Virus record (IMG/VR): IMGVR_UViG_2695420521_000005 | Coordinates: 1-43,752 of that record | Source of the DNA: a virus | Taxonomy: Duplodnaviria > Heunggongvirae > Uroviricota > Caudoviricetes | Direction: 5' to 3' (one strand) | DNA length: 43,752 nt | Shown here: piece after piece, positions 1,144 to 20,644 of the stretch | Numbering within the stretch: the stretch's first letter is position 1 | Layout: every line of letters begins with the position of its first letter | The notes under the pieces: generated by a model | The model's database searches: none | What the model was told of the DNA's origin: nothing | What the model saw: the letters and a program-made list of their open reading frames with translations, nothing else | Translations under genes and position numbers: made by a program

Positions 1144-1369
1144 CAGCGATTATCCGTTGGAGTTTTGGGTTTGCGTTTATTGGGAGTTGCGGTTCTGCAA
1201 GCGTTCCTACAAAACGGGAATTTCGGTCAATCATCCAGTAGCGACCAACTTTTATAGCGGGTGGGGCCATCATTTTCCCTTGCGCGTATTTTTTCAGAAC
1301 TCGCTCACTTGGTGCTAAGTCCCCAAATTCTTCTTTAGCCCAGTCCTGTAAAGTGATTAGTCGAGACAT
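1133..1369 (-). CDS. xis: excisionase
   Basis: 78-aa basic ORF immediately upstream of and overlapping int; size and position as lambda Xis; content consistent with a small winged-helix DNA-binding protein. Confidence 0.7.
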   Translation of the reverse strand: MSRLITLQDWAKEEFGDLAPSERVLKKYAQGKMMAPPAIKVGRYWMIDRNSRFVGTLAEPQLPINANPKLQRIIADGC

Positions 1370-1506
1370 TTGTCCTCCTCTTAGCTGCTGAGGGAGTTTG
1401 TGACCGATATATCTGACATGATATTAAGCTCATGGCAGGTACATCTCTTGACTGGTCATAGAGATATTTAATGCTGAGAAATGCAGTATTGAATTTATCA
1501 ATTTTT

Positions 1507-1746
1507 CTATTTCCTGCGTATGGCACGTAACTTCTTAATGTGTTCTGCCGTTTCGATCTCTTCTGCTATCCGATCTGCATCAGCTTTATTCACAGGTTCA
1601 AAGTCATGATTAAAGCGGAACATGCTGGCGATACATGTTCTGCCTTTTCGGATGTAGTGAACTTTGTTGTGGGTAGAACGCAGGATTTTGCAGGGAGTGC
1701 CGTGGTGGTCGACGTACCAGGTGTTAGGAAAAATGATTCTGAACAT
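1507..1746 (-). CDS. hypothetical protein, early-left accessory region
   Basis: 79-aa ORF co-oriented with the int-xis-exo block; no motif I recognise. Confidence 0.4.
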   Translation of the reverse strand: MFRIIFPNTWYVDHHGTPCKILRSTHNKVHYIRKGRTCIASMFRFNHDFEPVNKADADRIAEEIETAEHIKKLRAIRRK

Positions 1747-1793
1747 TTTTACACCTCAGTTGGACGATGTTGAAATTTGCTGCTTTGAGGCCA

Positions 1794-2012
1794 TCACAGT
1801 CCCCATTGTTTGTTCTTAAGTTCGATCTCCTCCTGGCAACTTGCACAAGTCCGACAACCCTGAACGGCCAGGCGTCTTCGTTCATCTATCGGATCGCCAC
1901 ACTCACAACAATGAGTGGCAGATATAGCCTGGTGGTTCAGGCGGCGCATTTTTATTGCTGTGTTGCGCTGTAATTCTTCAATTTCTGATGCTGAATCAAT
2001 GATGTCTGCCAT
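1794..2012 (-). CDS. TraR/DksA-family C4-type zinc-finger protein
   Basis: 72 aa with C-x2-C ... C-x2-C (HCCECGDPIDERRRLAVQGCRTCASCQ), the pattern of TraR/DksA C4 zinc fingers common in prophage early-left regions. Confidence 0.7.
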   Translation of the reverse strand: MADIIDSASEIEELQRNTAIKMRRLNHQAISATHCCECGDPIDERRRLAVQGCRTCASCQEEIELKNKQWGL

Positions 2013-2110
2013 CTTTCATTAATCCCTGAATTGTTGGTTAATACGCTTGAGGGTGAATGCGAATAATAAAAAAGGAGCCTGTAGCTCCATGATGATTTTG
2101 TTTTTCATGT

Positions 2111-2392
2111 TCACCGTTCCTTAAAGACGCCGTTTAACATGCCGATCGCCAGGCTTAAATGAGTCGGTGTGAATCCCATCAGCGTTACCGTTTCGCGGTG
2201 CTTCTTCAGTACGCTACGGCAAATGTCATCGACGTTTTTATCCGGAAACTGCTGTCTGGCTTTTTTGATTTCATAATTAGCCTGACGGGCAATACTGCGA
2301 AGGGCGTTTTCCTGCTGAGGTGTCACTGAACAAGTCCCATGTCGGCAAGCATAAGCACACAGAATATGAAGCCCGCTGCCAGAAAAATGCAT
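2111..2392 (-). CDS. hypothetical protein
   Basis: 93-aa ORF co-oriented with neighbours; true start may be internal; no motif recognised. Confidence 0.4.
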   Translation of the reverse strand: MHFSGSGLHILCAYACRHGTCSVTPQQENALRSIARQANYEIKKARQQFPDKNVDDICRSVLKKHRETVTLMGFTPTHLSLAIGMLNGVFKER

Positions 2393-2402
2393 TCAGTGGT
2401 TG

Positions 2403-2594
2403 TCATACCTGGTCTCTCTCATCTGCTTCTGCTTTCGCCACCATCATTTCCAGCTTTTGTGAAAGGGATGTGGCTAACGTATGAAATTCTTCGTCTGTTT
2501 CTACTGGTATTGGCACAAACCTGACTCCAATTTGAGCGAGGCTATGTGCCATCTCGATACTCGTTCTTAACTCAACGGGAGATGCTTTGTGCAT
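2403..2594 (-). CDS. hypothetical small acidic protein
   Basis: 63-aa ORF immediately upstream of exo, in the position of the lambda orf61/orf63/orf60a small genes. Confidence 0.4.
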   Translation of the reverse strand: MHKASPVELRTSIEMAHSLAQIGVRFVPIPVETDEEFHTLATSLSQKLEMMVAKAEADERDQV

Positions 2595-2745
2595 ACAGCC
2601 CCTCGTTTATTATTTATCTCCTCAGCCAGCCGCTGGGCTTTCAGTGGATTTTGGATAACAGAAAGGCCGGGAAATACCCAGCCTCGCTTTGTAACGGAGT
2701 AGACGAAAGTGATCGCGCCTACCCGGATATTATCGTGAGGATGCG

Positions 2746-3426
2746 TCATCGCCATTGCTCCCCAAATACAAAACCAATTTCAGCCAGTGCCTCGTCCATT
2801 TTTTCGATGAACTCCGGCACCATCTCGTCAAAACCCGCCATGTACTTTTCATCCCGCTCAACCACGACATAATGCAGTCCTTCACGCTTCATACGCGGGT
2901 CATAGTTGGCAAAGTACCAGGCATCTTTTCGCGTCACCCACATGCTGTACTGCACCTGGGCCATGTAAGCCGACTTTATGGCCTCGAAACCACCGAGCCG
3001 GAACTTCATGAAATCTCGGGAGGTAAACGGGCATTTCAGCTCAAGGCCATTGCCGTCACTGCATAAACCATCGGGAGAGCAGGCGGTGCGCATACTTTCG
3101 TCGCGATAGATGATCGGGGATTCAGTAACATTCACGCCGGAAGTGAATTCAAACAGGGTTCTGGCGTCGTTCTCGTACTGTTTTCCCCAGGCCAGCGCCT
3201 TAGCATTAACTTCCGGAGCCACACCGGTGCAAACCTCAGCCAGCAGGGTGTGGAAGTAGGACATTTTCATGTCAGGCCACTTCTTTCCTGAGCGGGGCTT
3301 TGCTATCACGTTGTGAACTTCTGAAGCGGTGATGACGCCGAGCCGTAATTTGTGCCATGCATCATCCCCCTGTTCGACAGCTCTCACGTCGATCCCGGTA
3401 CGCTGCAGGATAATGTCCGGTGTCAT
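2746..3426 (-). CDS. exo: lambda-type 5'-3' exonuclease (Red alpha)
   Basis: 226-aa product [40 protein letters not shown]... is near-identical to lambda Exo as I recall it; same length; followed by bet and gam. Confidence 0.95.
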
Positions 3427-4996: not shown

Positions 4997-5079
4997 GCTA
5001 CGGATCTAAGCGGTCATCGCAACGGTGAATCAGGTGGTTGCCGTATCGTTGTGTTGTTGCGATATGATGATAATAGCTA

Positions 5080-5190
5080 TTGCTATTGGTGATATCAATA
5101 CTTATTGCTATTGACTGATGTGTTTTGATATTAAATGTTTGATAGCAAAAAGAATTAATTTTGTGACTTGCATCGCATAGCGATAACTGA
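5080..5190 (-). promoter_or_regulatory. putative oL/pL operator-promoter region
   Basis: AT-rich intergenic region between the rexB-position gene and the N-position ORF. Holds two copies of TTGCTATTG (5090-5098, 5105-5113), a motif also found twice in the cI-cro intergenic region, plus a 5-3-5 palindrome ATCGCATAGCGAT near 5171-5183. Confidence 0.4.
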
Positions 5191-5271
5191 AGCAGGGGCA
5201 TGGTGGTTTTTTGAACGGTGTGTGATGAGGGGAGGCAAAAGAAAACCCGGCACGACGGCCGGGGAGGGGGG

Positions 5272-5778
5272 TCATTTTAATCTATCAAGGAGTGACTCTC
5301 TTTCCTTCTTCTCTGATTCTCTTCGGTTTAATAACGCTTTAAACTCTTGAAGCTCAACCATTATTTTATGAACGAATACACTGGTATAGAGAGAAATAAA
5401 GAGTAATCCACCTGAAATTTTTAAGACCCTGAAGAGTAGGGCTTGATCATTTGTGCTTGCTATTAACCCCAAGATTACAAACAAAGTTGAAAATACATAG
5501 AAAGCTAATAATAAAACCAATTTCAGTCTCTTGGATTTGACTATTGGCACTAATCGCCTAACCTCACTAGGGGTTAAAGACGAGTGGTCATTGGCCTCAT
5601 TTGCCTTAAAAATGGCTTGTATACAATATGATAATGGCAATTGCATGAGTCCAACCACAGCCCACGGAGCTGTTAGGACAACACCCGGTGTAATATAGCC
5701 CAATGCTGACTTGAACAAAAAGTAACCAGCAACATAGAAGACCAACATACCAATAAGGTGGATGATGTTCGATTTCAT
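5272..5778 (-). CDS. small integral membrane protein (about 4 TM helices) in the rexB position
   Basis: 168 aa with four hydrophobic segments (IIHLIGMLVFYVAGYFLF; VVLTAPWAVVGLMQLPLSYCIQAIF; LKLVLLLAFYVFSTLFVILGLIAS; GGLLFISLYTSVFV) and a charged C-terminal tail. Strong RBS (AGGAGG) 6 nt before the ATG; only 21 bp after the stop of the upstream 340-aa gene; visibly AT-rich. Confidence 0.75.
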   Translation of the reverse strand: MKSNIIHLIGMLVFYVAGYFLFKSALGYITPGVVLTAPWAVVGLMQLPLSYCIQAIFKANEANDHSSLTPSEVRRLVPIVKSKRLKLVLLLAFYVFSTLFVILGLIASTNDQALLFRVLKISGGLLFISLYTSVFVHKIMVELQEFKALLNRRESEKKERESLLDRLK

Positions 5779-5799
5779 TATCGCCCTCCTTTTGGTAGG

Positions 5800-6822
5800 T
5801 TATTTTGCAACCAATTCTCCGGCATCAAGTTTTGAGAACAGCCACTTATGCATTTTTAAGAATAAATCATTTTCATCAATAATGCCATTGTTATGTTCAA
5901 CGCTAATTTTTCCGGATAATTTTATCTCTTTTCCCGTTATTTCCCCACCGCCTTGAAGTTTGATGCTAATATCATCCTCATCTAGATGTCGTAGTGAGGT
6001 AGCAATACTGTCTATAACAGCTTGACCGCTATCATTTGTTTTTCTGAAGTATGTAATCTCGAGGCTTACTTGTAAATTGGCCTCATCTAATGAATCTTTA
6101 ATGTTTATATCATTTGCCCAGTTATCGCCAAAAAATGCTTTTAGTAGCGCACCTCCTTTCCCTATTGGGCGGTATTTTATTGTCTTCACCGAACCATTTG
6201 AAAAGGAGGGTGTTTGGTTCTCTGAATTTTTAACTTCTGAAGTAATGGGTAATCCACCAATTTTTATGCTCTTGGCTGGTGCTTTCTCCATTTTTTTCAT
6301 CGTTTCTTCGGATGGCTTATCTTGAAGCATTAACACAGATTCTTTTTCATCTGTGAATGTATTAATTAGCCAATTCAAATGCGCCTCAAGCTCCCTTGCT
6401 CGAAGCGATGTGGATTGAACGATCATGACATGGTTGTTTAGTACACCAAAATATAAAATTGAATCTACAAACTCTCTTTTTTTGTCACTACGTTTATCTC
6501 CATCAATAATTATATCATTAGACGTGATGGAGTTAATGTCATAAAATTTAACATTATCACTAAGCTCTAATAGAGACTGGCTTTTGTCTTTTTCAAATAA
6601 AACCAGTTGCCCAAAAAGTATAGTTTTGTATGTGTCGCTTTTATTTAAGAAACGATACCCCGAATTTTCATCTGAAGGTGTTATTTTTTCTTGTCTACTA
6701 AGTACTTTTTCTGCAACGCCGCCCTCACCTATAATACTAAGTAGTATGTTTTGTAATGATGATTTGCTGTGTGGGATTACTGCTTTTTTATAATGAACGA
6801 CTTTTTGTCTGTTATCTTTCAT
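5800..6822 (-). CDS. hypothetical cytoplasmic protein in the rexA position
   Basis: 340-aa ORF immediately downstream of cI on the same strand; Lys/Asp/Glu/Ser-rich, no catalytic motif recognised; visibly AT-rich; forms an operon with the downstream membrane protein. Confidence 0.75.
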   Translation of the reverse strand: MKDNRQKVVHYKKAVIPHSKSSLQNILLSIIGEGGVAEKVLSRQEKITPSDENSGYRFLNKSDTYKTILFGQLVLFEKDKSQSLLELSDNVKFYDINSITSNDIIIDGDKRSDKKREFVDSILYFGVLNNHVMIVQSTSLRARELEAHLNWLINTFTDEKESVLMLQDKPSEETMKKMEKAPAKSIKIGGLPITSEVKNSENQTPSFSNGSVKTIKYRPIGKGGALLKAFFGDNWANDINIKDSLDEANLQVSLEITYFRKTNDSGQAVIDSIATSLRHLDEDDISIKLQGGGEITGKEIKLSGKISVEHNNGIIDENDLFLKMHKWLFSKLDAGELVAK

Positions 6823-6879
6823 TGCTATAGTCCAACTAGTATTGAATAAATAAACACAGTAAAGACATAAAAATTTCTT

Positions 6880-6909
6880 ATAGCTACCGATAACGTAATC
6901 GGTAGCTAT
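6880..6909 (-). terminator. perfect 11-bp inverted repeat between cI and the downstream moron (possible intrinsic terminator or regulatory hairpin)
   Basis: ATAGCTACCGA-TAACGTAA-TCGGTAGCTAT; on the minus (transcribed) strand the stem is followed by AAGAAATTTTTATG, which is partly U-rich. Confidence 0.45.
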
Positions 6910-6944
6910 TACAAATCAACCAAAGGTAATTCTTTACATACTAC

Positions 6945-7637
6945 CTACCCATGCTTCCTGTAGGTCTGCGGCATGCTCCCAATAACTTTCCCGAAGATAA
7001 ACACCCGGTTCATCTCGTCTTTCTCGATAGGATCCCACGGTGAGTAGCTCTTGTTATCAGAGATAACCAGCAGTTTATCCTTCATCATTTGCAGGCGCTT
7101 TACATGGGCGGTGTCGTCGTACAGAAATGCATAGATACCATCACCGTCGAAAGATTTAACCGTGATATCAACGAACAGCAGATCACCTGGTTCGATCGTT
7201 CCTGACATGCTGTCACCACGCACGTTAATGATGCGGATATTTTCTGCCTTCCTGCCATCGAACATGTGACGAGCATCGTCAAACGAGTACTCAACCGAGC
7301 GTAGAACTTCTACAAACTCACGGTTGATGACTCCCGGCCCGGCACTGACTTCTATATCAAGAACGTCAATTTTGAAGTATTTGGAATGGCTGACAGCAGG
7401 CTTCCCTGATTGTTGACCGTCATTTCTCATCGGGCCTATGCCTGATGAGAGCCATTCTGTTCGAACACCCAATGCATTAGCTATTTCAACAATTTTTGTT
7501 GAGCCGCGCGCGTTGCCGCTTGTCAGTCTCCAGATTGTGGGTTGAGCTACGCCAGACGCCTTTGCAAGAGCGCCTTGAGACATTCCAGATTGTTCCATCG
7601 CTAGGTTTAAGCGATCAGCAAGAGTTTCTTTTTTCAT
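6945..7637 (-). CDS. cI: CI-type prophage repressor (HTH plus S24 LexA-like autopeptidase domain)
   Basis: N-terminal HTH (MSQGALAKASGVAQPTIWRL) and C-terminal S24 signature (GDSM serine, VKRL lysine); divergent from cro. The first ATG is at 7637 with no SD, consistent with a leaderless pRM-type transcript; the ORF track extends to a TTG at 7673. Sequence is not lambda CI, so the immunity specificity is different. Confidence 0.85.
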   Translation of the reverse strand: MKKETLADRLNLAMEQSGMSQGALAKASGVAQPTIWRLTSGNARGSTKIVEIANALGVRTEWLSSGIGPMRNDGQQSGKPAVSHSKYFKIDVLDIEVSAGPGVINREFVEVLRSVEYSFDDARHMFDGRKAENIRIINVRGDSMSGTIEPGDLLFVDITVKSFDGDGIYAFLYDDTAHVKRLQMMKDKLLVISDNKSYSPWDPIEKDEMNRVFIFGKVIGSMPQTYRKHG

Positions 7638-17569: not shown

Positions 17570-17945
17570 GCTGGTTATCGCTGCTTTTCTCGTTACTGTC
17601 ATCGGTTCTTTCATCTGGTCTGCCAACCACTACTACAGCAAATATCAGCACGAAAAGAAACGTGCTGATGAGGCTGTACAAAATGCCAAATCGGCAACTG
17701 TCATTACCAATAACGTCCTGCAATCACTGCAAATCGTCAATACAGTTCTGGAGGCTAGCCAGCATGCAAAACAGCAGATTGCACTGGAGTCACAGAGAAC
17801 CCAGACAGATATCAAAACGGCTGTTGCGAATGATGATTGCGCTGCCCGTCCTGTTCCTGCTCGTGCAGCTGAACGGCTGCGCCGGTACGCGGACAGTTTA
17901 CGTACCAGTTCCAGCGGTACCGCTACCGGCGAATCTGACCACTGA
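17553..17945 (+). CDS. Rz: i-spanin Rz
   Basis: 130 aa with an N-terminal TM helix (LVIAAFLVTVIGSFIWSANHYY) and a coiled-coil-like periplasmic region; overlaps the end of R. Confidence 0.7.
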   Translation: MKLSYKLVIAAFLVTVIGSFIWSANHYYSKYQHEKKRADEAVQNAKSATVITNNVLQSLQIVNTVLEASQHAKQQIALESQRTQTDIKTAVANDDCAARPVPARAAERLRRYADSLRTSSSGTATGESDH

Positions 17946-18087
17946 GACCCCACAACCAGTTATTCCTGATCCGCTGACCTATGGGGGCAGTCTGGATTTG
18001 AATGTCAGTCTGCTTTCCGCGCTGGCGACCTGTAACCGAGATAAAGCTGATATTCGAAAAATTGAAGCAGAGAGGATCAAGCTATGA
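17830..18087 (+). CDS. Rz1: o-spanin Rz1 (lipoprotein), overlapped architecture
   Basis: +1-frame ORF starting inside Rz: MMIALPVLFLLVQLNGCAG, a signal peptide with a lipobox-like LNGC, then a Pro-rich stretch VPVPAVPLPANLTTETPQPVIPDP. It extends 142 nt past the Rz stop rather than being fully embedded. Confidence 0.6.
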   Translation: MMIALPVLFLLVQLNGCAGTRTVYVPVPAVPLPANLTTETPQPVIPDPLTYGGSLDLNVSLLSALATCNRDKADIRKIEAERIKL

Positions 18088-18405
18088 AGCAGTAAAGCGG
18101 ACGGACCGTGGCAAGTGGCGCCAATGCAGCAGTCATGATGCTGCCCCGAATACCCAAAGTTGCGGGTAGCCAGTCTCAGGTAAAAAGCTGAGGGCGTACT
18201 GGTGAGGGGTAACGGGAAGAAGCGCACCGGTACTCCAGGCTGGTCGCCAGTCAGCTTCCGGTTAGTGGTGAGGGATTCACGAGATACCCCTGACACATGG
18301 CCTCAAGGGAATGAGCGCAGCTACTGCGAGAGTGTGGTTGGCATTCACTTAGTGCTTGCGATAATGCTTTTAGTTACAATCACTTCATCGATAAATGAGG
18401 TGAAG

Positions 18406-18945
18406 ATGAACGCAGATTATATAGCTTACGAATCATTGGTTGCCACTAGAAATACAGCAGAATGGGCTTTTTGGTCAATGGTAGGAACGTGGTTTTCAGG
18501 CATTGCAACCTTTATGGCAGTATGCCTGACTTTATATATTTCTAACCGTCGACCTCGACCGAAGTTAAGAGGAACAGTATCGCTTGGGGGCATCACAGGC
18601 CAAAATGTGAGCACGTTTGGAGTTACGATCAACATTGCAAATGTTGGCATTCAAACCGCAACTATAACTTCAGTAACATGGACGTTCGGTACAAAAAACT
18701 CACTACTTCAGATTCTGGGGGGTGGGTTTGGTGACGATTTACCAAAAAAAATTGAGCATGGCGAATATGCATTTTTCTTTATTCAAAATGATACTAATGG
18801 CGACTGGGCCAGAGATATGAAAAATAAGATATGGGAACAGGGCGGCAACGTTCGCAAATTAATGTTGCTTGTGCACCTTGCTACCGGCGATACGATGAAA
18901 ATTAAGCCAGCCAAAAATGTAATAAAAATGATCGAAAAATCATAA
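18406..18945 (+). CDS. hypothetical membrane-anchored protein (post-lysis moron)
   Basis: About 179 aa from the ATG at 18406 (SD GAGGTG); one N-terminal TM helix (WAFWSMVGTWFSGIATFMAVCLTLYI) and a Gly/Thr-rich C-terminal domain; visibly AT-rich. Confidence 0.55.
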   Translation: MNADYIAYESLVATRNTAEWAFWSMVGTWFSGIATFMAVCLTLYISNRRPRPKLRGTVSLGGITGQNVSTFGVTINIANVGIQTATITSVTWTFGTKNSLLQILGGGFGDDLPKKIEHGEYAFFFIQNDTNGDWARDMKNKIWEQGGNVRKLMLLVHLATGDTMKIKPAKNVIKMIEKS

Positions 18946-19052
18946 CATCCACAGGTGTATCACCATAGACAGCCTCCATTCTAATCTCACCATCACAGGA
19001 TCTCGTAGAGTGTCTGTGATGGTGCTATATCCTGTAAAGTAAAGGGAGACCA

Positions 19053-19340
19053 ATGATGACATCTTTAACCGTTGCGGTATTAGCTTTAATAGTTGCAATC
19101 TGGCATGAGATAAACCGATTTCCAGCAACCGGGAAGAGCTTACTGTCTTTACAGCAAGAAGTTAGGGAGCTGAGGGATGAAAATGAAAGATTAGCCTCTG
19201 AAGTAGATTCTTTAAAGGATGAGTTACTTGAAATTTCAAATCAGATAGATCGAATTAAAGACCCTGAATATTATGCATTGCTTGATGCAGGAGATGGAGT
19301 GGGTCTTTATGAAATAGAAAAGTCAAGAGGTCAAATTTAA
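19053..19340 (+). CDS. small membrane protein with coiled-coil (post-lysis moron)
   Basis: 95 aa; N-terminal TM helix (LTVAVLALIVAIW) then a heptad-like segment (LQQEVRELRDENERLASEVDSLKDELLEISNQIDRI); followed by a terminator hairpin. Confidence 0.5.
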   Translation: MMTSLTVAVLALIVAIWHEINRFPATGKSLLSLQQEVRELRDENERLASEVDSLKDELLEISNQIDRIKDPEYYALLDAGDGVGLYEIEKSRGQI

Positions 19341-19344
19341 TAAC

Positions 19345-19370
19345 CGCCTTTTTGGCGGTTTATTATTCCG
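19345..19370. terminator. hairpin terminator between convergent genes
   Basis: AACCGCC-ttttt-GGCGGTT followed by TATTATT, directly after the 19053-19340 stop and facing the convergent 19405-19731 gene. Confidence 0.5.
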
Positions 19371-19404
19371 TCATCATGGGCAGGCCCATCGTAACTGCAG
19401 TATC

Positions 19405-19731
19405 TTATATACACCAATGACATCTCTGGATGGTTGGCAGTCCTGTTAGTTGGCCTGCGGTGGACTCGGCCTCGTCAAGCGTAAGAACACATACTTTTTG
19501 GTATCGGCCAGTAGTAAAGCCGGCGTGATTTTTTGGGCTGATTAACGGGTTGATTGATTTGCATGAGGCTCGATGAATCCGCGTAAATCTGGCATCATTT
19601 TTTCTGCCTTTCCCGCTGGCCGACTTAAGCAGATTAATAACGAATCCATCGGAATGGGTTGCTAGCCAACTCTTGTACATCGCTTCGCTATCAACATCCT
19701 GTATTTCACTGCTGAAAATAGTAATGCCCAT
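19405..19731 (-). CDS. hypothetical protein (convergent moron near cos, in the bor region)
   Basis: 108-aa ORF with a C-terminal CHWC; no family recognised; not Bor-like. Confidence 0.4.
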   Translation of the reverse strand: MGITIFSSEIQDVDSEAMYKSWLATHSDGFVINLLKSASGKGRKNDARFTRIHRASCKSINPLISPKNHAGFTTGRYQKVCVLTLDEAESTAGQLTGLPTIQRCHWCI

Positions 19732-19879
19732 ATTTTTTCCGTATATGACTAACTGATATGAATATGTATCAGGACTATTTTATGGCAAAACCAGAGTAGA
19801 AGGCCATTGGGGTCCGGAGTGTTGATGTGAACAAATTAACCCCCCCCTTTAAGTGTAATTGATATGTATTATCATTTTC

Positions 19880-20098
19880 GGGTCCTTTCCGGCGATCCAG
19901 AACGTTACGGGGCGGAAGGCGCGCGGGTTTTCGCTATTTATGAAAATTTTCCGGTTTAAGGCGTTTCCGTTCTTCTTCGCCGTAACCTAATGTTTTTATT
20001 TAAAACCCCCCCTGAAAAGAAAGGAAACGACAGGTGCTGAAAACGGGCTTTTTAGCCTCTGTCGTTTCCTTTCTCTGTTTTTGTCCGTGGAATGAACA
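19880..20098 (+). other. cos: cos region (cosN plus cosB terminase-binding region) with a variant cosN core
   Basis: AACGTTACG-GGGCGGAAGGCG-CGCGGGTTTTCGCTATTTATGAAAATTTTCCGGTTTAAGGCGTTTCCG... aligns to the lambda cos / left-end leader from memory; the 12-nt core at 19910-19921 reads GGGCGGAAGGCG where I recall lambda GGGCGGCGACCT. Confidence 0.8.
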
Positions 20099-20618
20099 AT
20101 GGAAGTCAACAAAAAGCAGCTGGCTGACATTTTCGGTGCGAGTATCCGTACCATTCAGAACTGGCAGGAGCAGGGAATGCCCGTTCTGCGAGGTGGTGGG
20201 AAGGGTAATGAGGTGCTTTATGACTCTGCCGCCGCCATAAAATGGTATGCCGAAAGGGATGCTGAAATTGAGAACGAAAAGCTGCGCCGGGAAGTTGAAG
20301 AACTGCGGCAGGCCAGCGAGACAGATCTCCAGCCAGGGACTATTGAGTACGAACGCCATCGACTTACGCGTGCGCAGGCCGACGCACAGGAGCTGAAAAA
20401 TGCCAGAGACTCCGCTGAAGTGGTGGAAACCGCATTCTGTACTTTCGTGCTGTCGCGGATCGCAGGTGAAATTGCCAGTATTCTCGACGGGATCCCCCTG
20501 TCGGTGCAGCGGCGTTTTCCGGAACTGGAAAACCGACATGTTGATTTCCTGAAACGGGATATCATCAAAGCCATGAACAAAGCAGCCGCGCTGGATGAAC
20601 TGATACCGGGGTTGCTGA

Positions 20619-20644
<26 letters not shown>
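20099..20644 (+). CDS. nu1: terminase small subunit
   Basis: 181 aa, MEVNKKQLADIFGASIRTIQNWQEQGMPVLRGGGKGNEVLYDSAAAIKWYAERDAEIENEKLRR..., near-identical to lambda Nu1 from memory. Confidence 0.95.

What the first reader, a model, noticed from the sequence alone, without database searches (positions are those of the whole stretch)
18088..19731. Post-lysis moron cluster replacing bor: two small membrane proteins and a convergent 108-aa gene
Between Rz1 and cos, where lambda carries bor, there are two co-oriented genes (a roughly 179-aa single-pass membrane protein with a Gly/Thr-rich domain and a 95-aa TM plus coiled-coil protein) followed by a hairpin and a convergent 108-aa gene ending in CHWC. 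The region is AT-rich and none of the proteins resembles Bor. Small membrane proteins here are typical of superinfection-exclusion or host-fitness morons.
Basis: inference. Interest (0 to 1): 0.45.

Follow-up and report, generated by a model that had tools for sequence, protein, structure and literature searches.

The report
Phage moron patch hiding new RNA

Summary
After Rz1 (ends 18087) lie a 179-aa gene (18406-18945), a 95-aa gene (19053-19340), a two-way terminator hairpin (19342-19360) and a convergent 108-aa gene (19405-19731, ends CHWCI). None resembles Bor. All three are real genes with length-conserved homologues. They are not one cluster: each assorts alone, always in the lysis-terminase gap of different enterobacterial lambdoid prophages, which is the behaviour of classic morons. 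ORF-A has a conserved membrane helix plus an Ig-like sandwich and belongs to a large dark family of about 976 cluster representatives (phrog_16957). ORF-B has a membrane helix plus a leucine zipper and resembles FtsB/DivIC below Pfam's threshold. ORF-C is soluble, with an invariant His/Cys set and no fold match. Superinfection exclusion is neither supported nor excluded.

The main result is new. Positions 18070-18337 hold a Shine-Dalgarno site, a 3-codon mini-ORF and a pseudoknotted RNA of about 240 nt. It has more than 200 distinct relatives, always in one of three operon positions: the pL leader before N, after tR' between Q and holin, or after the spanins. Covariation is strong. There is no Rfam match and no annotation anywhere. 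Its function is unknown; I favour a cis-acting, ribosome-primed leader or insulator element.

The parts
18070..18076 (+). Shine-Dalgarno-like GAGAGGA that precedes the mini-ORF of the RNA element
   Evidence: Sequence. An equivalent GGAGG is conserved across the family.
18084..18095 (+). Mini-ORF ATG AAG CAG TAA. Its ATG overlaps the Rz1 stop codon (ATGA, 18084-18087).
   Evidence: Across the family the pattern is AUG + 0-2 sense codons + stop, with the stop 0-8 nt before the first hairpin. A strict heuristic found it in at least 72 of 115 copies, and most 'misses' also carry it.
18097..18337 (+). Structured RNA core. Helices: P1 18097-18109; P2 18110-18122; P3 18126-18144; long-range P4 CCC 18145-18147 with GGG 18206-18208; P5 18152-18167; CCAG/CUGG; hairpin 18175-18192; pseudoknot GCGU 18194-18197 with GCGC 18222-18225; CCGG-bounded domain 18227-18261; subtype-specific insert 18267-18294; P9 18302-18315; P10 18321-18337.
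   Evidence: Comparative structure on 26 copies: 88.6% of cells paired against 32-42% when partners are slid; 21 pairs changed on both sides against 4-10; 0 of 500 shuffles reach the observed values. Family-wide covariation. No Rfam family. No tRNA or tmRNA.
18338..18365 (+). Sigma70-like promoter TTGGCA-16-GATAAT with an upstream TG, overlapping a weak hairpin. It probably drives ORF-A and ORF-B.
   Evidence: 10 of 12 matches plus TG. The same cassette lies directly upstream of an ORF-A homologue (L013) and of ORF-B homologues (L022-L026) that have no RNA. It recurs after many RNA copies.
18406..18945 (+). ORF-A, 179 aa. It has an acidic N-tail, a highly conserved membrane helix (about residues 20-45), the basic stretch RRPRPK, and an Ig-like beta-sandwich.
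18988..19024 (.). Inverted repeat with an 11-bp stem, CACCATCACAG...CTGTGATGGTG, in the ORF-A/ORF-B spacer. It marks a junction between two cassettes.
   Evidence: Sequence. Not followed up.
19053..19340 (+). ORF-B, 95 aa. It has an N-terminal membrane helix (residues 4-17), a leucine-zipper coiled coil, and a conserved DPEYYALLDAGDG tail. Its layout resembles FtsB/DivIC.
   Evidence: Pfam DivIC (PF04977) matches 20 of 21 members at E<1e-3, but the window protein scores 23 bits against the 28.9-bit cut-off. hhalign against E. coli FtsB gives probability 30%.
19342..19360 (.). Two-way intrinsic-terminator-like hairpin AACCGCCTTTTTGGCGGTT between the convergent genes
   Evidence: reported on both strands.
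19405..19731 (-). ORF-C, 108 aa, soluble, with invariant H53, C57, C81, C104 and C107 (a probable zinc site). It is antisense to the late operon. PGAP does not annotate it in the identical record examined (L001, FHI_NMBU_03), nor in E. coli C4 (L002), which is 97% identical over this stretch.
19761..19788 (-). Promoter-like site TTGCCA-16-CATATT upstream of ORF-C
   Evidence: 9 of 12 matches. This is a consensus match only.

Best explanation
Window 18070-19788 is not one functional cluster. It is a mosaic of four independently mobile accessory modules sitting in the lysis-to-cos gap of a lambdoid prophage.

(1) Structured RNA, 18070-18337. It is read as part of the late transcript directly after Rz1. 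A ribosome loads on a Shine-Dalgarno site plus a 3-codon mini-ORF whose AUG overlaps the Rz1 stop codon. About 240 nt then fold into a compact multi-helix, pseudoknotted structure. The element belongs to a large, previously unannotated family that lambdoid phages carry at one of three places: the pL leader before N, just after tR' before the holin, or after the spanins.
Inferred, about 0.4: it acts in cis. It would be a self-contained leader or insulator whose ribosome-occupied 5' edge and rigid fold protect or condition the downstream part of a long antiterminated transcript, through stability, processing or polymerase behaviour.

(2) A sigma70-type promoter (18338-18365) drives ORF-A, and probably ORF-B, up to the two-way terminator. 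This is the classic moron unit, so both genes can be expressed from the prophage. ORF-A is tethered to the inner membrane by an unusually conserved helix, and the positive-inside rule puts its Ig-like domain in the cytoplasm. ORF-B is a bitopic leucine-zipper protein resembling FtsB/DivIC.
Inferred, about 0.3: both act on envelope or divisome proteins of the host, either as an exclusion or injection block or as a division modulator.

(3) ORF-C is a small zinc-type soluble protein with its own antisense promoter-like site. It is therefore likely expressed in the lysogen. Its role is unknown.

Shown: gene reality, independent assortment, anatomy, RNA covariation, family size and contexts. Inferred: every biochemical function.
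For: RNA.
- The same 250 nt is 72-93% identical in prophages with unrelated flanks.
That gives 219 distinct copies in hand.
- Covariation: on 26 copies, 88.6% of cells pair against 32-42% when partners are slid, 21 pairs change on both sides against 4-10, and no shuffle of 500 reaches the observed values. Family-wide, all 6 pairs of the P3 hairpin and all 5 pairs of the GCGCG hairpin covary. The long-range pair is C-G in 49 sequences and U-A in 17. The pseudoknot arms occur as CACAC/GUGUG, UACGC/GCGUA, CAUACC/GGUAUG and CGCGC/GCGUG.
- Orientation: co-oriented with the surrounding coding strand in 119 of 133 copies.
- Neighbours: upstream are Q proteins (PF03589, PF06323, DUF1133), cI-like repressors and spanins. 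Downstream are N peptide (PF25694), holins and assorted cargo.
- No Rfam family matches, and no record annotates it.

Proteins.
- Homologues keep their length at 39-76% identity.
- All three always lie in the lysis-terminase gap but never together.
- Promoter and terminator are, the GC drop, and rarity.
- Structures and fold searches. ORF-A superfamily. DivIC resemblance.
Against: No expression data exist for any part. Promoters and the terminator are consensus matches only, and the number of promoter-like sites does not exceed the shuffled expectation.

The single-sequence fold energy of the RNA is unremarkable (z = -1.2) and predicts a partly different fold, so the structure rests on comparison alone. 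Several helices are invariant and so uninformative. One hairpin is out of register in the MAFFT alignment (helix 6, 49% paired).

The cis model has no direct support. Downstream genes and distances vary widely, from 2 to about 800 nt. N- or Q-modified polymerase should not need help. A simple hairpin would suffice as a stabiliser, so the complexity of the fold argues for something more specific.

The DivIC resemblance is below Pfam's cut-off and could reflect only a membrane helix plus coiled coil. The topology of ORF-A and ORF-B rests on the positive-inside rule alone.
Confidence: 0.6

Rival explanations
1. The RNA is a trans-acting phage non-coding RNA. After excision from the operon transcript it would bind a host factor or a defence sensor, acting as a sponge, decoy or anti-defence RNA. 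Its place in the genome would matter only for being transcribed during lytic growth.
For: It sits in three interchangeable positions with different downstream genes and with variable distance to them. It behaves as a self-contained module with sharp borders: 93% identity to L004 while the flanks are unrelated. In pL leaders it is followed at once by the RNase III hairpin of the N leader, and in late leaders it is often bracketed by two terminators. Both could release a discrete RNA. The ribosome-bound mini-ORF could serve as a 5' stabiliser. The lysis-terminase gap in relatives carries anti-defence and defence genes: Tad2-like and Abi_alpha.
Against: No copy was seen with its own promoter. It is almost always co-oriented with, and embedded in, an operon. 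Timing differs between contexts, early in pL and late in pR'. No loop sequence with obvious target complementarity was identified. No discrete transcript is documented.
Confidence: 0.28
2. The RNA is a catalytic or ligand-sensing element: a new self-cleaving ribozyme that cuts the polycistronic transcript at module borders, or a riboswitch-like sensor that gates read-through into the next module.
For: The size (about 200-nt core), the pseudoknot, the A-rich linker crossing a helix and several invariant unpaired stretches (GGUUA, CUCA-AGGGCA-UGAG, CCCGA) are typical of ribozymes and aptamers. The element sits at operon junctions. About 17 late-leader copies are followed within 30 nt by a canonical intrinsic terminator.
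Against: No known ribozyme or riboswitch model matches, even at E<=10. No alternative pairing between the 3' helices and the downstream terminator was found by eye. Many copies have no terminator. The downstream genes share no pathway that would point to a ligand. Antiterminated polymerase ignores terminators.
Confidence: 0.12
3. One reading: ORF-A, ORF-B and ORF-C form one post-lysis moron cluster whose small membrane proteins mediate superinfection exclusion or host fitness, as a functional replacement for bor.
For: The position is that of bor. The region has its own promoter-like site, a terminator and low GC. Two of the three proteins are membrane-anchored. The membrane helix of ORF-A is exceptionally conserved, and its N-terminal module is reused with other C-terminal domains in other phages. 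That pattern is common in exclusion and immunity proteins.
Against: The three genes never co-occur outside five near-identical E. coli prophages, so there is no operon-level selection. There is no similarity to SieA/SieB, Imm, Cor, Llp, gp15, Bor or Lom, nor to any PADLOC model. ORF-C is soluble.
Confidence: 0.15
4. The conserved 250 bp is a DNA-level feature with no RNA function, for example a recombination 'linker' that promotes module exchange between lambdoid phages, or a protein-binding site.
For: It lies exactly at module borders in three places. It is shared at high identity by otherwise unrelated phages, which is the classical boundary-sequence idea for lambdoid mosaics (own knowledge). 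In L044 and L060 it is flanked by a duplicated 16-nt leader hairpin.
Against: Compensatory double changes preserve pairing in at least seven helices, including a pseudoknot, and partners slid by one column lose the signal. Orientation relative to transcription is fixed. A translatable mini-ORF with a Shine-Dalgarno site is conserved. None of this is expected for a homology patch.
Confidence: 0.04

Closest known systems
Lambdoid 'morons' such as lambda bor and lom (independent promoter-gene-terminator units inserted between operon genes; own knowledge of Juhala et al. 2000 and Hendrix)
   Same: Same genomic slot as bor. Present or absent among relatives, with lower GC. A promoter-like site lies upstream and a terminator downstream. 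ORF-C is antisense like bor.
   Different: No sequence or fold relation to Bor or Lom. Here three unrelated cassettes are stacked, and a non-coding RNA behaves as a fourth 'moron'.
HK022 put RNAs (PMC9378689)
   Same: Structured RNAs in lambdoid operon leaders. putL lies just downstream of pL, where one context of this family also lies.
   Different: put RNAs are about 70 nt with two stem-loops and act where there is no N. This RNA is about 240-270 nt with at least 10 helices, a pseudoknot and a mini-ORF. It co-occurs with N and Q genes and nut-like sites. No sequence relation was seen.
Lambda nutL / N-leader (boxA, boxB, RNase III hairpin) and the pR'-tR' late leader
   Same: Same neighbourhoods. 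Many copies sit between a nut-like site and the GCUUUGGGG...CCAAAGC RNase III hairpin before N, or right after tR'.
   Different: It is an extra module absent from lambda itself. It carries no boxA or boxB of its own.
Lambda bar minigenes / bacterial 'start-stop' mini-ORFs (own knowledge)
   Same: A strong Shine-Dalgarno site plus AUG plus 0-2 sense codons plus stop, transcribed from phage operons.
   Different: Here the mini-ORF is physically and evolutionarily coupled to a large structured RNA starting 0-8 nt after the stop codon. The codons are not conserved.
Prophage sRNAs between Q and holin: STnc100/PasD, AgvB, AsxR (bioRxiv 10.64898/2026.05.13.724894; Rfam RF02076, RF02702, RF02703)
   Same: Non-coding RNAs of lambdoid prophages, in the same general regions.
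   Different: Those families are in Rfam and do not match this element. They are Hfq-type base-pairing sRNAs, not multi-helix pseudoknotted folds.
FtsB/DivIC septum-formation initiators (Pfam PF04977), compared with ORF-B
   Same: A short N-tail, one membrane helix, then a leucine zipper of about 35 residues. 20 of 21 family members hit the profile over residues 8-57.
   Different: The window protein scores 23 bits against the 28.9-bit gathering cut-off, and the best E-value among members is 1.9e-06. hhalign against E. coli FtsB gives 30% probability. The C-terminal motif DPEYYALLDAGDG is unrelated, and the gene is phage-borne.
phrog_16957 and phrog_6169 (unknown function), compared with ORF-A
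   Same: They share the conserved N-terminal membrane-helix module. 29 of 37 superfamily members match phrog_16957.
   Different: The match to the window protein covers only residues 16-51. Neither family has a known function.

Membership tests
Lambda Bor lipoprotein family | Sequence match to the Bor family; lipobox signal peptide | tested here: not met
   No Pfam or NCBIfam hit for any of the three proteins. None has a lipobox (sequences).
Moron (autonomous accessory unit in a phage operon) | Present or absent among otherwise related phages | tested here: met
   The full arrangement is in 5 of 5426 genomes. E. coli C4 has the same holin, cos and Nu1 but lacks ORF-A and ORF-B. Homologues occur in other phage backbones.
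Moron (autonomous accessory unit in a phage operon) | Own promoter and terminator | tested here: inconclusive
   There is a good consensus promoter at 18338-18365, a weaker one for ORF-C, and a two-way terminator hairpin. All are pattern matches only, and no transcript data exist.
Moron (autonomous accessory unit in a phage operon) | Base composition differing from the flanks | tested here: met
   41-43% GC over 18501-20000 against 50-58% in the flanking lysis and terminase genes.
Known superinfection-exclusion / anti-phage defence proteins | Homology to a described exclusion or defence protein | tested here: not met
   PADLOC, PHROGs, Pfam and NCBIfam give nothing above noise. Fold searches give only generic Ig-like matches or none.
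Known superinfection-exclusion / anti-phage defence proteins | Blocks infection when expressed | not testable with these tools
   Needs plating and injection assays.
FtsB/DivIC (PF04977), for ORF-B | Profile score at or above Pfam's gathering cut-off | tested here: not met
   The window protein scores 23.0 bits against the 28.9-bit cut-off. 20 of 21 relatives hit at E<1e-3, best 1.9e-06.
FtsB/DivIC (PF04977), for ORF-B | Bitopic membrane helix followed by a leucine-zipper coiled coil | tested here: met
   Maximum KD19 of 1.84 at residue 2, and a heptad-rich stretch at 30-70 that hits many coiled-coil profiles.
Rz-like i-spanin, for ORF-B | Profile match; partnered o-spanin; position in the lysis cassette | tested here: not met
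   PHROG spanin hits are only at E 0.03-0.09. There is no embedded or adjacent lipoprotein gene. A complete Rz/Rz1 pair lies upstream.
Any Rfam 15 RNA family, for 18070-18337 | Covariance-model match | tested here: not met
   Nothing at gathering score in the window. Nothing at E<=5 over 17900-20100. No consistent hit at E<=10 in 11 other loci that carry the RNA. ARAGORN finds no tRNA or tmRNA.
HK022 put antiterminator RNA | About 70 nt, two stem-loops forming a V | tested here: not met
   The element is about 240-270 nt with 12 helices including a pseudoknot. The put description comes from PMC9378689.
HK022 put antiterminator RNA | Acts in cis on RNA polymerase to suppress termination | not testable with these tools
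   Needs terminator read-through assays.
Riboswitch | Aptamer coupled to an expression platform upstream of functionally related genes | tested here: not met
   The downstream genes are unrelated (N, holins, DUF2560, TerB, morons). Distances to them range from 2 to about 800 nt, and only a subset has a terminator nearby.
Structured RNA (generic) | Base pairs maintained by compensatory change beyond controls | tested here: met
   0 of 500 shuffles reach the observed values, and slid controls pair 32-42% against 88.6% observed. Searches show the same on 69 sequences below 90% identity.

The most novel reading that the evidence does not exclude
The 18070-18337 element represents a new class of large phage RNA: a ribosome-primed, pseudoknotted module carried by hundreds of lambdoid phages. 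It would have a specific biochemical activity of its own, such as self-processing of operon transcripts, direct action on RNA polymerase or the ribosome, or neutralising a host defence sensor. It would not be a passive stabiliser.
Probability: 0.3. Interest if true: 0.85.

Novelty: new variant of a known kind. Interest (0 to 1): 0.62.

Why it matters
Lambdoid phages are the best-studied regulatory system in biology. Even so, a conserved 240-270-nt RNA with clear covariation sits unannotated in their N leaders, in their late leaders and after their lysis genes. It is found in phages that are in hand, namely mEp213, mEp237 and Stx2c-converting phages.

If the RNA works in cis, it adds a layer to the textbook picture of antiterminated operons. 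If it works in trans or is catalytic, it is a new phage RNA function. The coupling of a 1-3-codon mini-ORF to a non-coding fold is itself an unexplained design. It may also explain why lambda carries 'bar' minigenes.

The protein side matters less. It adds three families of unknown function to the list of lysis-terminase hot-spot cargo. One of them has about a thousand cluster representatives, and one resembles FtsB. These could be screened for exclusion or cell-division effects.

Tried and rejected
- Rfam at gathering score and at permissive E-values, on the window and on 11 other loci: nothing. Weak isrJ and STnc100 hits lie outside the element.
- tRNA or tmRNA: none.
- Group I intron, cobalamin riboswitch, 16S helix-24 mimicry, hammerhead: considered from sequence resemblances recalled from memory. 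No model support, so dropped.
- ops/RfaH site: GCGGGTAG is not GGCGGTAG, so dropped.
- RNA linked to ORF-A: rejected. ORF-A homologues in L009-L013 have no RNA. Only 9 of 219 RNA copies are followed by a protein sharing ORF-A's N-terminal module.
- 'TTACAG' as a -35 box for the conserved GATAAT: the spacing is 22-23 nt, so rejected. In the window the TTGGCA-16-GATAAT reading stands.
- Coding potential of 18088-18405: the in-frame GTG at 18202 and the reverse 105-aa ORF are rejected, because copies differ by indels that are not multiples of three and by paired substitutions.
- RNAalifold on the raw MAFFT alignments recovered only part of the structure. A covariance model of the full element was not built because its length would exceed the calibration limit.
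- Literature searches for a described lambdoid leader RNA, mini-ORF RNA or Breaker-type motif found nothing relevant. The library lacks most subscription papers.
- ORF-A: the PDB profile search was empty.
Full report
**Setting**

The window is a lambda-like E. coli prophage. Its late region reads:
- Q at 14858-15547
- an antisense DUF3800 gene
- holin at 16789-17106
- R at 17093-17569
- Rz at 17553-17945
- Rz1/LysC ending at 18087
- a lambda-type cos region near 19909
- Nu1 at 20099 and terminase A at 20619

The finding covers the gap between Rz1 and cos.

**Checking the observation**

- ORF-A, 179 aa, 18406-18945
- ORF-B, 95 aa, 19053-19340
- a hairpin at 19342-19360 that scores as a terminator on both strands
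- the convergent ORF-C, 108 aa, 19405-19731, ending CHWCI

None matches Bor or any curated family. GC is 41-43% from 18.5 to 20.0 kb against 50-58% around it, but 49.8% in 18001-18500. The complete arrangement occurs in only 5 of 5426 complete E. coli genomes. In the identical record examined (FHI_NMBU_03, L001), PGAP calls ORF-A and ORF-B 'hypothetical' and does not call ORF-C.

**Are they genes, and are they a cluster?**

Each ORF has homologues of conserved length in Citrobacter, Raoultella, Enterobacter, Klebsiella, Yersinia, Salmonella and others:
- ORF-A: 10 clusters at 39-70% identity
- ORF-B: 23 clusters at 51-76% identity
- ORF-C: 18 clusters at 53-97% identity, with invariant H53, C57, C81, C104 and C107

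In every context examined the homologue lies between a lysis cassette and a terminase. The lysis and terminase types differ, and the three genes are never together. ORF-C homologues are always antisense to the late operon, often beside the small terminase subunit. The same gap in relatives carries Tad2-like and Abi_alpha genes. The region is therefore a cargo hot-spot, and the three genes are separate cassettes.

A good sigma70-type site lies at 18338-18365: TTGGCA, 16 nt, GATAAT, preceded by TG. A weaker one precedes ORF-C. The 18340-18388 cassette recurs directly upstream of an ORF-A homologue and of ORF-B homologues in other phages. That fits a portable promoter or leader.

**The proteins**

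The membrane helix is unusually conserved (W20, A21, F22, W23, M25, G27, W29, G32, A34, T35). The N-tail has net charge -2 and the post-helix segment +5. By the positive-inside rule the sandwich is therefore cytoplasmic.

A profile search of 1.84 billion representatives finds 976 relatives at E<=1e-3, nearly all 170-195 aa. None has a Pfam domain, and 29 of 37 sampled match phrog_16957, which has no known function. In some phages only the N-terminal 40-70 residues are shared, and the C-terminal domain differs.

*ORF-B.* It has a membrane helix, a leucine zipper and a conserved DPEYYALLDAGDG tail. Twenty of 21 family members hit Pfam DivIC/FtsB at E<1e-3. The window protein scores 23 bits against the 28.9-bit cut-off, and hhalign against E. 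coli FtsB gives only 30% probability. I record this as a resemblance, not membership.

*ORF-C.* It is soluble and models at pLDDT 90. It has no fold or sequence match in the PDB.

**The part that was overlooked**

The 318 nt between Rz1 and ORF-A are not spacer. Positions 18088-18340 are 72-93% identical to non-coding DNA in 13 other E. coli genomes and in phage mEp237. The flanks there are unrelated:
- after LysC and before other cargo: L003, L004 (an S1 peptidase follows), L008
- between Q and the holin: mEp237, L006, L007

Alignment shows paired substitutions in several stems. Scans with two conserved blocks gave the following:
- 31 IMG/VR contigs plus Citrobacter youngae and Pectobacterium polonicum
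- 116 metagenome contigs, many of them human gut

A second subtype is present in 115 of 5426 E. coli genomes. It also occurs in Escherichia, Klebsiella, Hafnia, Providencia and Stx2c-converting phages, and is never annotated. In all, 219 distinct copies are in hand.

**Anatomy of the RNA**

From 5' to 3':
- a Shine-Dalgarno sequence
- a mini-ORF
- two small hairpins (P1, and P2, often with a GAAA loop)
- hairpin P3
- CCCGA, whose CCC pairs about 60 nt downstream with GGG
- one or two hairpins enclosed by that pairing
- a pseudoknot helix joining the segment before CUGG to the segment just before a CCGG...CCGG-bounded domain, across an A-rich linker
- GGUUA
- a variable hairpin or insert; the window subtype has GGUGAGGGAUUCACGAGAUACCCCUGAC
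- the nearly invariant CUCA-AGGGCA-UGAG hairpin
- a terminal hairpin

On 26 copies of the window subtype, my 12-helix structure gives these numbers:

| measure | observed | 3' partners slid by 1-3 columns |
|---|---|---|
| cells forming standard pairs | 88.6% | 32-42% |
| pairs changed on both sides | 21 | 4-10 |
| covariation score | 0.188 | at most 0.072 |

None of 500 shuffles reached the observed values.

On 69 sequences below 90% identity:
- All 6 pairs of P3 and all 5 pairs of the GCGCG hairpin covary.
- The long-range pair is C-G in 49 sequences and U-A in 17.
- The pseudoknot arms occur as CACAC/GUGUG, UACGC/GCGUA, CAUACC/GGUAUG and CGCGC/GCGUG.

Single-sequence folding is not exceptional (z = -2.4 with flanks, -1.2 for the core), so the case is comparative. 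Indels that are not multiples of three and paired substitutions exclude a protein-coding reading.

**The mini-ORF**

Across the family the 5' edge is a Shine-Dalgarno site, AUG, 0-2 sense codons and a stop codon. The stop lies 0-8 nt before P1. Examples are ATGAAGCACTAA, ATGCACCAGTAA, ATGCTGTAG, ATGTAG and ATGTGA.

A strict heuristic finds it in 72 of 115 copies, and most of the remaining copies have it by eye. The codons are not conserved, so the peptide is irrelevant and ribosome loading is what is kept. In the window the AUG overlaps the Rz1 stop codon (ATGA). The mini-ORF is missing only in four copies that begin about 25 nt after the pL start site. In those the pL leader hairpin replaces P3, and in two of them it is duplicated on the other side of the element.

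**Contexts**

The RNA is co-oriented with the surrounding coding strand in 119 of 133 copies. There are three positions:
- (a) In the pL operon, after a cI-like repressor and pL and beside nut-like sequences. The N-leader RNase III hairpin and an N gene (PF25694) follow immediately. Examples are mEp213 and a Stx2c phage.
- (b) Just after the tR'-like terminator downstream of Q (PF03589, PF06323 or DUF1133) and before a holin or a moron. A second intrinsic terminator often follows.
- (c) After the spanins, as in the window.

The distance to the next ORF ranges from 2 to about 800 nt.

**What it is not**

No Rfam 15 family matches, and it is not a tRNA or tmRNA. It is not put: that RNA is about 70 nt with two stem-loops (PMC9378689). 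It is not STnc100, the Pas sRNAs, AgvB or AsxR. The literature searches I could run found no description. The library lacks most subscription journals, so an older description cannot be excluded.

**Mechanism**

Shown: the RNA is a real, conserved, pseudoknotted fold. It is transcribed in sense with antiterminated operons, carries a ribosome-loading mini-ORF, and moves as a unit between three operon positions.

Inferred best guess (about 0.4): a cis-acting leader or insulator. The ribosome on the mini-ORF and the rigid fold would give the downstream RNA a protected, context-independent 5' boundary after processing, or would condition the elongation complex.

Against this guess:
- A hairpin would be enough for stabilisation.
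- Downstream genes and spacings vary.
- N- or Q-modified polymerase should need no help.

The rivals are:
- a trans-acting RNA released by RNase III or terminators, acting as a sponge or anti-defence RNA (0.28)
- a ribozyme or sensor (0.12)
- a DNA-level recombination linker (0.04), contradicted by the covariation, the fixed orientation and the mini-ORF

For the proteins I can commit only to 'lysogen-expressed accessory proteins'. Two would act at the inner membrane and one would be a zinc-type soluble factor. Exclusion or division interference is plausible but untested.

**Verdict**

The 'cluster' and 'exclusion' readings are not supported. As written the finding is ordinary. The overlooked RNA makes the locus interesting: it is a member of a large, unannotated family of structured RNAs in the most-studied phage group.

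Noticed in passing
window 15769-16572 (-): A DUF3800-domain protein gene lies antisense between Q and the holin in a low-GC island. It is another moron in the classic Q-S slot. Rfam's DUF3800-associated RNA motifs did not match the window.
   Followed up: partly
window 43517-43715 (+): Full-length match to the Rfam sRNA family IS009 (207 bits against a gathering score of 117).
   Followed up: no
window 5000-7000 and 10500-13500: Two large low-GC islands (33-40% GC) within a prophage that is otherwise 50-60% GC. They are probably further acquired cargo.
   Followed up: no
window 18988-19024: An inverted repeat with a perfect 11-bp stem lies in the spacer between ORF-A and ORF-B. It could be a cassette junction, a processing site or a terminator lacking a T-tract.
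   Followed up: no
window 18338-18388; also L013 5933-5982 and L022-L026 4935-4975: A portable cassette, 'hairpin + (TG)nGATAAT', recurs directly upstream of unrelated cargo genes, with or without the RNA. Stem sequences differ between copies but stay complementary, so it may be more than a promoter.
   Followed up: partly
L044 and L060 (IMG/VR), pL leader: The RNA lies between the pL start and nutL (boxA/boxB). The 16-nt leader hairpin CTCACCAGGACGGTGA is present on both sides, like a target duplication or a selected repeat of a needed hairpin.
   Followed up: partly
L185 (phage mEp213), locus 1345-3102: The pL operon carries two N-type antiterminator genes (gp51 and gp47). The RNA plus a nut-like site lies between them, so a whole 'leader + N' module appears to have been inserted downstream of another.
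   Followed up: no
L014-L017 and L027-L030: The lysis-terminase gap of related prophages carries Tad2-like (anti-Thoeris family) and Abi_alpha genes next to ORF-C or ORF-B homologues. The slot is a defence and counter-defence hot-spot.
   Followed up: no
L066, L099, L119, L201, L254: Proteins encoded just downstream of other RNA copies share only the first 40-70 residues (N-tail plus membrane helix) with ORF-A and have different C-terminal domains. This is a modular anchor with swappable heads.
   Followed up: partly
window 20013-20080: A long perfect hairpin in the cosB/Nu1 leader, as in lambda, produces spurious microRNA hits in permissive Rfam searches.
   Followed up: no
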